Assembly (NCBI GenBank): GCA_951406725.2
Contig: OX597834.1
Location: forward strand, 25,048,001-25,112,000
Reading direction: 5' to 3'
DNA length: 64,000 nucleotides
From: Octopus vulgaris
Taxonomy: Eukaryota
This document shows, piece after piece, positions 15,700-55,310 of this stretch (positions are counted from its first letter, which is position 1; every line of letters begins with the position of its first letter). Both the position numbers and the translations under genes were made by a program. The notes under the pieces were generated by a model, which was given only the letters and a program-made list of their open reading frames with translations, did no database searches and was not told where the DNA came from.

Positions 15700-15744
15700 C
15701 GCACGAACTCGAGTTTCTGGGTATTGACCTGTCATCAGCGCACG
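15700..15744 (-). ncRNA. Minimal type I hammerhead-like motif, same family as 29019..29058
   Basis: Minus strand reads cgtgcg-CTGATGA-ca ggt caat acc ca-GAAAC-TCGA-GTT-cgtgcg. Stem I needs two G-U pairs; stem III loop CUCGAG is palindromic. Downstream sequence (tttgcaaa...ggacacagaaagtgtgtcaa...cctggggcta) is homologous to 29090-29160. Confidence 0.6.
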
Positions 15745-17226
15745 ACAATCACTGGTTTTCGATGGAAGAGGTCCCAATGCAAATACATATATCCTTTTTT
15801 CACTGACTTTTCATCACTGATCTTGAAAAAGTGTAAACAAGCAATAATAAACCTCTGAACGAGGTATAAACAGTAACTGCACGACAATGTTAAGTATATT
15901 TGCCATGTCTTAAGTTGTTTCTCCTGGTTACCGAAATCTTTATGATGGATCTTATGCAAACATATTTCTGCAGGTATGATTTTTTTCATTGAGTTTCATC
16001 GAAGTTCTTCCTGAGAGAGTTCAGGCCGGCTGCTAATAAAGCAACAACACTTGAGTTAAGAGTTCAGAGTATTTGTGAATATGTGGCTTAGTTGGTGGGT
16101 ATCGATTCACATAAGAATCTCAGATTGATAATTTCTGGAATGTCTCACAAATATTCACTGTGTCTCTTAATAGATTGGATTTGGAGAATCCGGTTTCCAT
16201 GAAACCGAGTATTTAAAGGTTTTGTGCAAATTTGTTCGTACATAACTGTATATATGATGATAGGCATAAACGAGGATTCACACTCAGGATACAAATGTAT
16301 GTATGTAAGTATGTATGTATGTATGTGCGTGTGTGTGTGTGTGTGTGTGTGTGTGTGTGTGTGTGGGTGTGTGGGTGTGTGTGTGTGTGTGTGTGTGTAC
16401 GGTCACAACTTACAGAGTTTGACCGTCACCAAATATACAACTCACTTGCATATATATGAGTGTGTTGTGTGCGTATAGACAGACAGATAGACACATACAC
16501 AAACCCACACACATATATGAAAAAATTATGAATAAATGTATAAAATACAGTCATACTTTAAGCTAATCATTTAATTATTAACAACTGAACTGAATGATAA
16601 AATAAATACTAATTAGTATATTGCTAAATAAACACCCCAGCTTCCAAAATAATAAACTAAAATTTGGATAATTGAATAAAAAGCAATTCTATGAGGAACG
16701 TGAAAACGAGGTAAAATACGAAAATATTGTAAAGAAACCACTCCAAATCTTAAGTAGATAATGTTTATATATTTAATAATGTAATGAAGAAGGGCGGGAC
16801 TCTTCTGTTTATAACACAATACAGCTAAAGGCGAGAGAAGAAGGTTCATAAATGAAAGAATTATAGAAGTTTATCACAGAGGGTGGCAAGAATACAGAAC
16901 GGCGGAAGAAAAATTGTTTTTATTGATAAAGATGCATGGACTGGAATGTGGACACAGCTGAATATGAGACAATATTAACAGCTGAGAAAGGAAAGAAAAC
17001 ACGACATTATCAAATATATCAGGATAATAGAAAAGGCAACCAAATTTCCTCTCAACACACGCCCAATCAATTATCTTTGATAAAATATATAACGTCGTCG
17101 TAATTACATTGTTGACTAAAAATAAGACGGGATTGTCGTGGTTGGAGGTCTTTCTTCATAGGTCTGTTAGATGAGAATTAGTCTGTGACAAAATAATCAT
17201 AACAACAACAACAATAATATATTTTT

Positions 17227-17440
17227 TTACTATTCACAAGGGGCTAAACATAGAGGGGACAAACAAGGACAGACAAAAGGATTAAGTCGATTACATCGAC
17301 CCCAGTGCGTAACTAGTACTTTATTTATCGACCCCGAGAGGATGAAAGGCAAAGTCGACCTTGGCGGAATTTGAACTCGGAACGTAACGACAGACGAAAT
17401 ACGGCTACGCATTTCGCCCGGCGTGCTAACGCTTCTGCCG
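17227..17440 (-). mobile_element. SINE family C
   Basis: Reverse-complement homolog of 40583..40800. Confidence 0.85.
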
Positions 17441-18876
17441 CAACGGCAACATCTAGGATGTTACTCGGTGAAAACAGGAATATTCCTCCTTCGTGGCAAG
17501 ACTGGTAAATCTGAAGAAAAAATAACTGCATGTCTCGGGAAAGTTCTGCTCCAAAAAGCAGAAACAGCAGTGATCTATAAACCTTCATTTCGTACAAGAC
17601 CAGAGATAAACGACAGGAAACTAGTTTAAAATATAAACATATGAAAAGAGCGATTGGTTAAGTGGCTAGTAAATACCAAGATACAATTGACCACATTGTA
17701 ACAAATATACTCAGCCTTGGCCAAGCCAGAACAACTTGCATGTATATGCACACAGACATAACTGTATGCGCGCGCATGCGTGTGTGTGTGTGTGTGTCTG
17801 TCGTCGTGTTTAATTAATTGCATATTAATCACTACAAAATCTGGGAAGATAAGCATATGTTAATAAAGAAAGTCAAAGAAGCTTTTTAAAGGAGAAGTGA
17901 ATTAAGTGGAATCTTAAATATGGCGTTATTAAAAATATATTTATAGGGTGGCGAGATGGCAAGATTGTCAGCACGTCGGGCAAACTACTTGGCGGCATTT
18001 CGTTCGTCTTTACGTTTTAAGTTCAAAACCGACGAGGTCGATTTTTTCCTCTCGTCCTTTCGGGGTCGATAAAATAAGTAGTAGTTGAACACTGGGGGTC
18101 GATGTGATCGATTATCCCCACCCCACAAATTCCAGGCCCCGAACTTGCTGTCCTTGTTCTAAAATTTGAAATCGATATTAAAAATACATTCATTAAATAT
18201 ACTGCAAAACTACTTATTTTTATCTCTCATGTGTTTCAATCACGGGATTGTGACCATGCTGGGGCACCGCCTTGAAGTATGACTGGAACAAATCGACCAC
18301 AATCTGATACTTATTCTAGCAGTCACTTTTGCCGAGCCGCTAAGTTAGGGAGAGATAAATAATCCACTACCAGATGACAAGCGCTGGTGGTGATGGTGTT
18401 GGTGCTGGTGGTGGTGGTGGTGAACACACACACACACACACACAAACACACACACGATGGGCTTCTTTCAGTTCCGCCTATCAAATCCACTGAAAAGGTT
18501 CGAGGCTATAGTAGAAAATACTTGCCCAAGGTGCCACCCAGTGGGACTGAACCCAAAAACAATGTGATTACAAAGCGAACTTCTTACCATACTGTCAAGC
18601 TTGTGCCTACAGTTAAAATATAATTATAAATATAAAGGTAAGAATTTAAAATGTAATTATTTTTTTAAAAATTATTATTATTATAATATATCTAGTAATA
18701 TATAACCAACAAAAAATGCTATTTCTTAATGCAAAACACAGACGTCTTCCAGAAGGTCACACAGAAGGGGCATTACTGATAACACTAAGGTTAAGGTTGA
18801 AGATTCCTATAGGAGAAGACTGGGTTTTACCTTAAAAGATAGTAGTTTTTGTAGATATGTATTATTAAATATTTAG

Positions 18877-19165
18877 AGCACTCCGTCGGTTGTGACGACG
18901 AGGGTCCCAGCTGATATGATCAACGGAACAGCTTGCTCGTGAAATTAACGTGCAAATGGCTAATCACTCCACAAACACGTGTACCCTTAACGTAGTTCTC
19001 GGGGAGATTCAGCGTGACACAAAGTATGACAAGGCTGGCCCCTTTGAAATACAGGTACCAATCATTTTTGCCAGCTGAGTGGACTAGAGCAACGTGAAAT
19101 AAAATGTCTTGCTCAATGACACAACGCGCCGCCAGGAATTGAACTCACGACCTTACGATCCCGAG
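18877..19165 (-). mobile_element. SINE with a CORE-like head joined to the family A tail
   Basis: Head and core resemble the 28530 copy; the tail gtacctgtatttcaaagg...accgacggagtgct is shared with family A. Confidence 0.8.
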
Positions 19166-52979: not shown

Positions 52980-53400
52980 ATACACGTATATATATATATA
53001 TATATATATATATATATATATATATATATATATATATATATATATATTATGTATGTATGTATATATATATATATATATATATATATATATATATATATAT
53101 ATGTATATATGCATATATATATATATATATATATATATAATATGTATTTATATATATGTATTATATATATATATATGTATATATGTATATATATATGTAT
53201 GTATATTTATGCATATATATGTATATATATGTATATATATATATATATATGTATATATATATATATATATATATATATATATATATATATATATATATAT
53301 ATATATATATATATATATATATATATATATATATATATATATATATATATATATATATATATATATATGTGTATATATATGTATGTGTATATATGTATGC
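52980..53400. repeat. (TA)n microsatellite
   Basis: Directly visible. Confidence 0.95.
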
Positions 53401-54143
53401 ATATTTGTTATGAAGTATTTTTCCATATTTTTCCTGAAGAATGTCATTCCTTGGGCATTTATAGAAGGGAAAGACCTTAAATTTTCCTTCTCCACATGTA
53501 TCCAAGTATTTTCTCAGTGGATTCTTTTGCAATTCCTTCTGTATATACATACACACACATATGATATTATACCCCTTTTATAATTTCGTACGATGGTATT
53601 CGTTTGAAAAGATCTACGTCTAAGAGTGCACGTAACAGTACCTATATTCTAATCTGTCTTCGTTCTGTTATATAGTTTATGCGTTGTAACGGGCATGTAG
53701 ATACATATTCGTCCTAAATTTGGTCGTGTCTATGTTTAAGAATACACATGTGTGTATGTACACATGTACGTATGTATGTATGTATGTATGTATGTATGTA
53801 TGTATGTATGTATGTATGTATGTATGTATGTAGATACGTACGTATGTATGTGTGTATGTATGTACGTATGTATGTATGTGTGCATGTATGTATGTATGTT
53901 TGTATGTATGTATGTGTGTGTGTGTATGTATGTATGTATGTATGTATGTATGTATGTGTGTGTGTATGTATGTATATATATATGTATGTATGTATGTATG
54001 CATGTATGTATGTGTGTGTATGTATGTATGTATGTATGTATGTATGTATGTATGTATGTATGTATGTATGCATGTATACATTGTATGTATGTATACATTG
54101 TATGTTTGCGTGTATATTTGCTAACATATGTTTATATGTATAT

Positions 54144-54428
54144 AGGAGTGGCAATGTGGTAAGTAGCTTGCTTACGAACCACATGCTTCCGGGTTCAGTC
54201 CCACTGCGTGGCACCTTGGGCAAGTGTCTTCTACTATAGCCTCGAGCCAACCAAAGCCTTGTGAGTGGATTTGGTAGACGGAAACTGAAAGAAGCCTGTC
54301 GTATATATATATATATATATATATATATACTAGGCTTACAAAGAATAAGTCCTGGGGTCGATTTGCTCGACTGAAGGCGGTGCTCTAGCATGGCCACAAC
54401 AGTCAAATGACTGAAACAAGTAAAAGAG
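54144..54428 (+). mobile_element. SINE family B, internally deleted
   Basis: Head intact; the TA tract joins directly to ctaggcttacaaagaataag. Confidence 0.85.
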
Positions 54429-55274
54429 CAACCTAAAAGATACATCGCATACGTACGTCTATGCAGATTCTTGTCTCACACGCGCGCACACGTGTGTGTG
54501 TGTGTGTGTATGCATGTGTGTGTGTGTGTGTGTGTGTGTGTGTGTGTGTGTGTGTGTTTGTGTGTGTGTGGACTAATGAAGTCATACGTAAAGACATACG
54601 AATATCCTACTGCTATCACCTTATTTTTGTCCTTTTTTTTCTTTTTACTTTTTTCATTTCGCCCTTCATTTCTCTTCCCTACCCCCCCCCCCCCATATAA
54701 ACTTTTATTACTCATATTTATCTATCCTAACCACAAACATCCCAGTTTGCATCGTGCCGGCAACCAATCATTGACGCCAAGTATACATTAATGGGATTAT
54801 AATCTACTGTTTTAAGAGCAATAAGTTGAGTATACTGATAACGAAATGAAACCACACCTCTCTCTATCTCGCTAAGGCAATCGGTAAGTAGGGTGCGTTA
54901 TCGGTGATTTATTGATCCCGATTTCCTCTCTCACTTTCTTTTTCATTCTCCATTACGGCGTGTTATTTCTGACTAAACAGTACCTGGTGAAAAAATACGC
55001 CGGACGGGTACGAAACATTTGTAATATTATATAAAATGCATCCGTTATGCTTTTGAAACCGCTGTAGTACTCGACTACCTCTTCGCTATCTGTTATGTAT
55101 GTGCATGTATATAAAATATATGTATGTATATATATATATATATATGTGTGTGTGTGTGTGTGTGTGTGTGTGTGTGTGTGTATACATATATATATATATA
55201 ATGTGTGTGTATGCATACACATACACACATACACACCGCTTTTTCTTTTTCACTCAATTTCTTTCTTCGCATCC

Positions 55275-55310
55275 TTTTCTGTCGAAGAGAGTAGGCTCGA
55301 AACGTCAAAG
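55275..55310 (+). ncRNA. Minimal hammerhead-like motif (CUGUCGA core variant) inside a ~165-bp element at 55235..55398
   Basis: tttt-CTGTCGA-a-gag agtagg ctc-GAAAC-GTC-aaag. The downstream ttccgagcgtcaaata resembles ttcctgagcgtctaata that follows the 33839 motif. Confidence 0.5.

What the first reader, a model, noticed from the sequence alone, without database searches (positions are those of the whole stretch)
15700..55310. At least eight dispersed minimal hammerhead-ribozyme motifs in short non-coding elements
Seen in sequence: motifs of the form stemI-CUGANGA-stemII-GAAAC-(palindrome)-GUH-stemI' at 15700(-), 19779(-), 19988(+), 29019(+), 33839(-), 35200(+), 52846(+) and 55275(+). They fall into several sequence families, none with an RT or endonuclease ORF. 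Established: Penelope-like elements carry minimal type I hammerheads with a palindromic, nearly absent helix III in their pLTRs, and metazoan non-LTR retrozymes are small hammerhead-bearing non-autonomous elements that yield circular RNAs. Inference: this genome hosts a dense, diversified set of ribozyme-bearing non-autonomous retroelements (about one per 8 kb here) that gene-centred annotation would miss.
Basis: partly seen in the sequence, partly recalled or inferred. Interest (0 to 1): 0.8.

Follow-up and report, generated by a model that had tools for sequence, protein, structure and literature searches.

The report
Octopus hammerhead retroelements: retrozyme-like and Penelope
The eight hammerhead-ribozyme motifs are real but mostly decayed, and are of two kinds: three sit in a 355-base protein-free repeat unit that was likely copied around this octopus genome by Penelope-type jumping genes, and the other five look like ordinary cut-off tails of such jumping genes, so the kinds are already known from other animals, and RNA cutting is untested here.

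Summary
All eight motifs are at the stated places and exceed chance (6 hits against 0.05 in shuffles). The window is Octopus DNA. Four of eight cores are mutated.

Family A (15738, 29024, 52851) is not minimal: it has a 6-bp helix I and a 2-4-nt palindromic helix III loop. It lies in a closed 355-nt ORF-free unit. One copy is 1.17 units between perfect 13-bp target duplications; another is one full turn in a different permutation. Its insertions carry Penelope marks: inverted 5' piece, one-sided tail, two clusters of 3' ends. Contigs from three organisms keep the core and swap the palindrome TA/AT together. This is retrozyme-like; tandem arrays, circles and cleavage were not shown.

Families B, C and D are Penelope-type motifs; B and C are cut too short to show an ORF, so 'non-autonomous' is unproven for them.

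Both kinds are published (2014, 2020, 2026), and this scan noted them in other genomes. New here: an octopus family, and footprints pointing to Penelope enzymes as retrozyme movers.

The parts
15251..15903 (-). Family A, subfamily A1: complete insertion of 1.17 units (415 nt once the nested insertion is removed), flanked by a perfect 13-bp target duplication at 15238-15250 and 15904-15916
15552..15906 (-). One 355-nt unit of A1 (42% GC, longest stop-free frame 86 codons in the doubled unit); its start recurs at 15551-15531 plus 15305-15251
15700..15744 (-). A1 hammerhead: 6-bp helix I, intact core at 15738, 2-bp helix II, 4-nt palindrome, predicted cut after 15706; sits at the tip of a long rod
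15306..15530 (+). Ribozyme-less A2-type insertion nested in A1's second repeat: inverted piece 15306-15371, forward piece 15372-15530 with one-sided tail, perfect 13-bp target duplication at 15293-15305 and 15531-15543
19755..19838 (-). Family B copy; minimal-type hammerhead, intact core at 19817, helix II disrupted, cut after 19782
19958..20117 (+). Family B copy with perfect 22-nt inverted ends (19958-19979, 20096-20117); minimal-type hammerhead, core at 19991 (U4A), 5-bp helix II
28862..29221 (+). Family A, subfamily A2: inverted 3' piece with tail (28862-28968) plus 5'-truncated forward copy (28985-29221) ending in a (TC)n tract; no target duplication found
29018..29059 (+). Best-preserved hammerhead: 6-bp helix I, intact core at 29024, C.A mismatch at the base of a 3-bp helix II, 2-nt palindrome, predicted cut after 29053
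33732..33934 (-). Family C copy between microsatellites; minimal hammerhead 33839-33873, core at 33869 (U4C)
34550..34608 (+). Ribozyme-less 3' fragment of family C, 94% identical to 33741-33802 in opposite orientation
35196..35237 (+). Family D: single decayed motif, core at 35200, 6-nt near-palindrome, helix I not in register; element ends not defined
52589..52976 (+). Family A, subfamily A3: inverted piece 52589-52626 plus one full turn of the unit (52623-52976) permuted relative to A1, ending at a (TA)n tract; hammerhead 52845-52887 lacks N7
55237..55396 (+). Family C copy (second subfamily) between microsatellites; minimal hammerhead 55275-55310, core at 55279 (A6U)

Best explanation
The motifs are decayed hammerheads of two kinds of retroposed repeat in an Octopus genome: three lie in a closed, protein-free 355-nt unit that is likely a retrozyme copied in trans by Penelope-type reverse transcriptase, and five are likely cut-off 3' ends of Penelope-like elements. 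Shown: the unit length, its closure, lack of ORF, 13-bp target duplications, inverted 5' pieces, one-sided tails and clustered 3' ends. Inferred mechanism for family A: a master locus with two or more units is transcribed; the hammerheads, probably pairing as dimers through the helix III palindrome, cut it to unit length; the unit is ligated to a self-paired circle; a Penelope protein nicks AT-rich DNA and starts reverse transcription inside the unit at one of two sites about 45-55 nt apart, usually stopping early (often before the ribozyme) and sometimes running past one full turn; an inverted piece is added at the 5' junction. The dispersed copies hold one ribozyme each and are predicted to be dead ends.
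For: Closure: A1 repeats its own start 355 nt later (55 nt at 91%) inside a 13-bp duplication; A3 aligns collinearly to the doubled A1 unit from position 293 round to 296, 227 of 377 columns, score 165.5 against 53 +/- 8 in 200 base shuffles; contigs of all 4 laid runs continue past the A2 tail into sequence like that found upstream of the A3 rod (loose ends compared by eye). Selection on the ribozyme: (3347, 3466, 2308 and 434 contigs laid) no substitution of 10% or more is listed at 29024-29042, 29044-29048 or 29051-29058; T>A at 29049 and A>T at 29050 have near-equal depth in all four runs (3154/3205, 5696/5571, 631/628, 61/61), which keeps the palindrome; helix I pairs 6/6, 6/6 and 5/6 with different sequences in A1, A2, A3. 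Circular folds z -3.5 and -5.4 (40 shuffles). Penelope marks: inverted 5' copy, one-sided tail and short duplication are the published pattern (PMC3846280 passages; PMC8557442 passages); two internal RT starts explain the tail in vitro (PMC11167929); 6 of 7 family A 3' ends fall at unit positions about 18-20 or 62-77. Family C matches a model built from 30 metagenome motifs at E 3e-7 and 5e-7, and 14 of 119 such loci have a Penelope ORF piece ending upstream on the same strand. Recently active Penelope families exist in O. vulgaris.
Against: No dimer or longer array of family A is in the window and none could be sought genome-wide (no genome held). No cleavage, circle or expression data. No partner Penelope ORF was found. 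The tail is 41-58 nt, longer than the published 30-40. A3's forward end (unit position 296) lies outside both clusters; A2 and A3 show no target duplication. Swapped helix I halves still pair 2-5 of 6, and 5 of 6 for A3, so three copies are weak covariation evidence. In the one purified Penelope system the ribozyme was not needed for insertion and uncut RNA was the main template. The model was trained on loci picked with a family C pattern, so it is not independent for C, and it scored families A, B and D at E 3.7 or worse. Summed contig depth is not a copy number.
Confidence: 0.58

Rival explanations
1. Same Penelope-driven copying of the 355-nt unit, but from uncut linear tandem transcripts; no circle is involved and the hammerhead is dispensable for movement or acts at another step.
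For: More-than-unit copies and permutation arise equally from a tandem linear template. Ribozyme mutants did not change insertion by the anole Poseidon protein. Only 1 of 9 Xenopus retrozyme dimers cut in vitro. Family A has a mismatch at the base of helix II.
Against: Core, palindrome and helix I are kept across three subfamilies about 60% identical, which needs selection on the ribozyme. Mussel units of 350-390 nt do give abundant circles, and the axolotl motif with a basal helix II mismatch does cut.
Confidence: 0.24
2. Family A is moved by a LINE (Dong-R4, RTE or other), not by a Penelope element.
For: These LINEs have recently active copies in O. vulgaris; 13-bp duplications are within LINE range (own knowledge); the 2020 paper leaves LINEs open as partners.
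Against: Internal 3' ends at two clustered sites, inverted 5' pieces that copy the 3' end, one-sided tails are the Penelope pattern; no shared LINE-like 3' tail seen.
Confidence: 0.07
3. All eight motifs, family A included, are only 5'-truncated ends of autonomous Penelope elements; no non-autonomous family exists here.
For: Most metazoan minimal hammerheads are lone motifs from truncated elements; 103 of 119 metagenome loci showed no hit to 5 seed proteins (many contigs short).
Against: Sequence 3' of the family A tail is the sequence 5' of its ribozyme, within 355 nt and without ORF, in two independent copies.
Confidence: 0.06
4. The inverted ends mark a miniature DNA transposon or DNA-level satellite that happens to carry a hammerhead-like sequence.
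For: 66-bp and 65-bp terminal inverted repeats at 28903-29221 and 15306-15472, 22-bp ones at 19958-20117.
Against: Inversion points differ between copies, one arm carries a tail, A1 has no inverted end, and contig depth rises towards the 3' end (7-88 thousand over the ribozyme, 290-990 thousand near the end in runs X1 and X2).
Confidence: 0.03
5. Some motifs are kept by the host as intronic regulatory ribozymes, for example in the CAP-domain gene around 14.8-22 kb.
For: A1 and the 19817 copy lie on the same strand as a CAP-domain exon at 14800-14932.
Against: Both are decayed; orientation across the window is mixed; single copies of dimer-type motifs are predicted to cut poorly.
Confidence: 0.02

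Closest known systems
Metazoan non-LTR retrozymes (Cervera and de la Pena 2020, PMC7229834: results parts 2-3, discussion and passages read, supplement not readable; mussel 350-390 bp, axolotl 330-350 bp)
   Same: Family A: one type I hammerhead per ORF-free unit of 355 nt, GC 42%, target duplication longer than 4 bp, strongly self-paired circular fold, weak palindromic helix III; a mismatch at the base of helix II has a precedent in axolotl HHR_Amex2 (U.U).
   Different: Seen here only as dispersed copies of 1.17 units or less; carry inverted 5' pieces and one-sided tails, which the parts I read do not describe for retrozymes; basal mismatch is C.A or A.A; circles and cleavage untested; host is a cephalopod.
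Minimal hammerheads of Penelope-like element pseudo-LTRs (Cervera and de la Pena 2014, PMC4209133: main text parts 1-2 and supplement file 2 parts 1-2 read)
   Same: Families B and C: CUGANGA plus one extra base, G10.1-C11.1, no helix III loop, palindromic ACGU, 3-4-bp helix I; lone dispersed motifs; opposite-strand pairs within 100-700 bp; molluscs already listed (Lottia, Crassostrea).
   Different: No flanking ORF reached here; each copy is point-mutated; family A has canonical dimensions. One of 56 rows in their Fig. S3 has an extra A before GAAA (by row order the Cotesia element; figure not seen), so that feature is not without precedent.
Retrozymes as non-autonomous Penelope derivatives (Li, Clavereau, Pollet 2026, bioRxiv 10.64898/2026.07.22.740005: parts 1-3 of 5 read, through the discussion)
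   Same: Proposes Penelope origin and mobilisation; reports dispersed monomers beside arrays.
   Different: Evidence there is co-occurrence and pLTR homology in vertebrates, no mollusc; here the evidence is the insertion footprint, and no homology to an octopus pLTR could be tested.
Penelope insertion anatomy and internal RT initiation (Arkhipova 2013, PMC3846280 passages; Frangieh 2024, PMC11167929 parts 1-2)
   Same: Short target duplication, inverted 5' copy, tail at one end only, two start sites downstream of the ribozyme, AT-rich or microsatellite targets, insertion into own repeats.
   Different: Duplication 13 bp against 8-10; tail 41-58 nt against 30-40; family A 3' ends lie about 170-230 nt after the cut; no protein encoded.

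Membership tests
Non-LTR retrozyme (family A) | Type I hammerhead of canonical size (helix I 6 bp, helix II 4 bp, short helix III with palindromic loop) | tested here: met
   helix II is 3 bp plus a basal mismatch that is the majority state (A at 29043; T 7-14%)
Non-LTR retrozyme (family A) | Unit of 150-450 bp, no protein, GC under 50% | tested here: met
   355 nt, 42% GC, longest stop-free frame 86 codons
Non-LTR retrozyme (family A) | Occurs as tandem repeats with two or more ribozymes | tested here: inconclusive
   Longest copy in 64 kb is 1.17 units with one ribozyme; genome not held; closure shows a tandem or circular source
Non-LTR retrozyme (family A) | No LTR, target duplication longer than 4 bp | tested here: met
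   13-bp duplications at 2 of 4 family A insertions; none found at the other 2. Primer site and polypurine tract were not searched
Non-LTR retrozyme (family A) | Stable self-paired circular structure | tested here: met
   predicted only: z -3.5 and -5.4
Non-LTR retrozyme (family A) | Conserved loop 1-loop 2 tertiary contacts | not tested
   loop 2 is 5-6 nt and A-rich, helix I breaks after 6 bp in all three copies; contacts not modelled
Non-LTR retrozyme (family A) | Self-cleavage and accumulation of circular RNA | not testable with these tools
   only contigs were available
Penelope minimal hammerhead (families B, C) | CUGANGA plus extra base, G10.1-C11.1, loop-less palindrome, short helix I | tested here: met
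   architecture met at 19991, 33869, 55279 with one core change each, and at 19817 with broken helix II; 0 of 8 pass the strict descriptor as single copies
Penelope minimal hammerhead (families B, C, D) | Lies in the pseudo-LTR next to an RT plus GIY-YIG ORF | tested here: inconclusive
   no ORF remnant, but B and C copies end before the distance at which the ORF end is found elsewhere; D's ends are undefined
Penelope-type insertion (family A) | Inverted 5' copy, one-sided tail, clustered 3' ends, short duplication | tested here: met
   inverted piece in 3 of 4 insertions, tail in 2, 6 of 7 ends in two clusters
Penelope-type insertion (family A) | Sequence shared with the pLTR of an autonomous octopus Penelope family | not testable with these tools
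   no genome or repeat library held
Rfam hammerhead families | Covariance-model match | tested here: not met
   none in 28880-29220 (E 10) or 15280-20100 (E 5); none among the 150 listed of 425 whole-window matches

The most novel reading that the evidence does not exclude
Octopus genomes hold an old, diversified retrozyme lineage (at least three subfamilies about 60% apart) whose circular 355-nt RNA is reverse-transcribed by Penelope proteins, and the dispersed copies are the direct footprint of that event: more than one turn of the circle, two internal start sites, inverted 5' ends. If one motif per 8 kb held genome-wide, a 2.8-Gb genome would carry some 350,000 hammerhead relics, and the long-open question of who moves animal retrozymes could be settled with a purified Penelope protein and this RNA.
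Probability: 0.35. Interest if true: 0.68.

Novelty: new member of a known kind. Interest (0 to 1): 0.45.

Why it matters
Minimal hammerheads in truncated Penelope ends are ordinary. The useful part is family A. Animal retrozymes are thought to move through circular RNA with borrowed enzymes, and Penelope elements are the named but unproven partner. Copies with a target duplication, more than one unit length and Penelope-type ends give sequence-level support for that partner and name the RNA positions where copying starts, which can be tested in the existing in vitro assay. It also suggests an unannotated small structured RNA, possibly circular, in octopus. Rfam does not report these motifs, so ribozyme counts for cephalopods (235 in giant squid) may be far too low.

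Tried and rejected
Whole genome: none held, so no genome-wide counts or consensus. Expression: no RNA holder listed for 28880-29225; run X11 is only guessed to be RNA, so its 434 contigs are not taken as evidence either way. A suspected decayed GIY-YIG or RT remnant upstream of 15738, seen by eye, found no support in Pfam, homologue search, tblastn or the Neptune profile; part of that stretch turned out to be the A1 unit itself. 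The profile covers Neptune-type proteins; Poseidon-type were tested with 2 seeds only, other clades not at all. Family A pattern: 0 matches in metagenome contigs, 0 in 128 loci (looser pattern); 4 genome and 2 viral matches are at chance level, have no helix I, no Rfam match, and the two folded score z -0.2 and 0.3. Family C pattern in viral contigs: 9 matches, none with a hammerhead core. Pair count on alignment A4 is void: the alignment is out of register between the 4-nt and 2-nt palindromes; pairs were counted by hand register instead. Family D against the A1 unit scored 86 against 55 +/- 8 but was not found by the A profile; left unassigned. Candidates 59598 and 2567 dropped. The idea that the extra A before GAAA is CpG decay was rejected (G not listed). 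Literature: 'hammerhead ribozyme + Penelope + octopus', 'hammerhead + Penelope + cephalopod' and 'retrozyme + octopus' list only Craig 2021, the giant squid genome paper and one LTR paper (listing only); no title there concerns octopus retrozymes. One search was badly formed and says nothing. Lunse 2017 on dimeric Penelope hammerheads is not held and is known here only from citations; it, the 2020 supplement, the bioRxiv supplements and the O. vulgaris repeat library on Zenodo were not seen and may already list these families.

Full report
Setting. The window is 38% GC and rich in microsatellites (12,890 of 64,000 bases masked). Its one long ORF (1335-3179, minus strand, BTB-BACK) is 99% identical to a protein named from Octopus sinensis, so the host is an Octopus of that group. 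No genome is held; evidence on other copies comes from one laying of public contigs and from collection scans.

Observation. A strict descriptor finds 4 against 0.03-0.05 in shuffles; a looser one 6 against 0.05, maximum 1. Both were written with the sites in view, but the margin is large. The copies are worn. Four cores are changed (19991 U4A, 33869 U4C, 55279 A6U, 52851 without N7); 19817 has lost helix II, 35200 helix I, and 15738 keeps 2 bp of helix II. Only 29024 looks whole. My version of the published minimal descriptor passes none. Rfam reports no hammerhead in the two regions scanned closely.

Families. Alignment sorts the motifs into A (15738, 29024, 52851), B (19817, 19991; 74% alike), C (33869, 55279) and D (35200), plus ribozyme-less fragments of A (15306-15530) and C (34550-34608). 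Together they cover roughly 3.3% of the window; Penelope-like elements are annotated at 6.83% of O. vulgaris, in 190 families (PMC13282606 supplement row).

Family A is a closed short unit. The 15738 copy repeats its own first 60 bases 355 nt downstream; the repeat is split by a nested insertion. Both the whole (15251-15903) and the nested piece (15306-15530) are bounded by perfect 13-bp duplications, so the outer insertion is 415 nt, or 1.17 units. The 52851 copy aligns to the doubled unit from position 293 round to 296, one full turn in another permutation, at 60% identity and about 14 standard deviations above base shuffles. The unit has no frame over 86 codons and folds as a circle with z -3.5 and -5.4; the ribozyme sits at the tip of a rod of about 33-45 pairs. 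Loose ends in all four laid runs carry the A2 tail on into sequence like that upstream of the A3 rod (compared by eye). An element whose downstream sequence is its own upstream sequence within 355 nt has no room for an ORF: this family is non-autonomous.

Its ribozyme is under selection. Thousands of contigs from three organisms lie on 28860-29222. No substitution reaching 10% is listed in the core, helix II stem or the first five pairs of helix I's 3' strand; an A is added in loop 2 in a minority. The two palindrome bases change together, TA to AT, at near-equal depth in every run. The A before GAAA is the majority state, so helix II starts with a C.A mismatch; the axolotl motif with a U.U mismatch there is a precedent, and one row of the 2014 alignment has an extra A at that place. 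Helix I is 6 positions in all three copies with different sequences, pairing 6, 6 and 5; swapped halves pair 2-5, so three copies alone are weak evidence. These are canonical metazoan type I dimensions, not the minimal form.

Its insertions look Penelope-made. Three of four have an inverted copy of the 3' end at the 5' side; in two, one arm runs 41 or 58 nt further than the other; six of seven 3' ends fall near unit positions 18-20 or 62-77. Published Penelope copies have an inverted pseudo-LTR, a tail on one end and an 8-10-bp duplication, and the purified anole protein starts at two internal sites whose spacing is the tail. Contig depth rises steeply towards the 3' end and opposite-strand joints fall at many places, which fits 5' truncation and variable inversion, though depth is not copy number and some joints reflect the stretch's own inverted repeat. 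Against: A3's forward end is outside the clusters, two insertions show no duplication, and no partner ORF or shared pseudo-LTR was found.

Families B, C, D. B and C have the minimal form of 2014: extra base after the core, G-C at the base of helix II, loop-less palindrome, 3-4-bp helix I. A pattern from family C finds 119 metagenome loci (scan stopped at its limit, full flanks for 80). With five seed proteins taken from four of them, 16 loci show Penelope protein, 14 with a piece ending upstream on the same strand, nine at 91-158 nt. The octopus C copies stop 42-65 nt upstream of the core and B copies sooner, so the missing ORF says nothing about autonomy. A 152-sequence Neptune-type profile finds no remnant anywhere in the window. 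The simplest reading is 5'-truncated Penelope ends; C sits in microsatellites, as noted for Neptune. D stays unassigned.

Mechanism. I commit to the retrozyme cycle for A: transcription of a tandem master, dimer-assisted cleavage, ligation to a circle, copying by Penelope RT from internal starts. Anatomy is shown; cleavage, circle and partner are inferred. The main rival is copying from uncut tandem RNA, which gives the same DNA products and matches the anole result that the ribozyme is dispensable in vitro.

Comparison and novelty. Minimal hammerheads as lone relics (2014), 350-390-nt retrozymes in a mollusc (2020) and Penelope origin of retrozymes (2026 preprint) are published. Family A works like a non-LTR retrozyme; full membership awaits tandem copies and circles. 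Three searches pairing these terms with octopus or cephalopod listed no paper whose title concerns such a family, and the parts of the retrozyme papers I read do not describe inverted ends or tails; unseen supplements and the O. vulgaris library may. Earlier notes of this scan record the same kinds in other genomes; they are unchecked and were seen as agreement only. Verdict: observation confirmed with corrections, interpretation right for three motifs and unproven for five, new member of known kinds, interest 0.45.

Noticed in passing
window 1335-3179 (-): Long ORF with BTB and BACK domains, 99% identical to an uncharacterised O. sinensis protein with only 3 relatives found.
   Followed up: partly
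window 14800-14932 (-) and about 21905-22025 (-): CAP-domain exon (Pfam E 5.7e-5) and a probable earlier exon of the same gene seen by eye (no Pfam hit); the A1, nested A2 and both B copies would lie in the intron between them.
   Followed up: partly
window 34400-34545 (+): Short frame that by eye recalls the restriction-like endonuclease end of R4/NeSL-type LINEs (recalled motif); Pfam gave no hit. It abuts the family C fragment.
   Followed up: partly
window 49014-49920 (+): Broken mariner-type transposase (PF01359, E 3.6e-10).
   Followed up: no
window 59598 (+) and 2567 (+): Hammerhead-like cores with palindromic GAAACGT but no convincing helix I (for 59598); possibly older relics or chance.
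   Followed up: partly
window 15630-15646 (-), 29109-29125, 52940-52956: A small hairpin just 3' of the rod is the best-kept sequence of family A outside the ribozyme, and depth jumps there; a candidate protein-binding or promoter element.
   Followed up: no
window, e.g. 246-628, 5233-5648, 7052-7409, 17214-17443, 40579-41364, 47127-47925, 57755-58195, 61832-62236: Several high-copy short dispersed repeat families without hammerheads, probably SINEs; not classified.
   Followed up: no
L129, L133, L134 about 1001-1032: Bacterial and phage matches to the family A pattern are one homologous stretch that looks protein-coding; treated as chance.
   Followed up: yes
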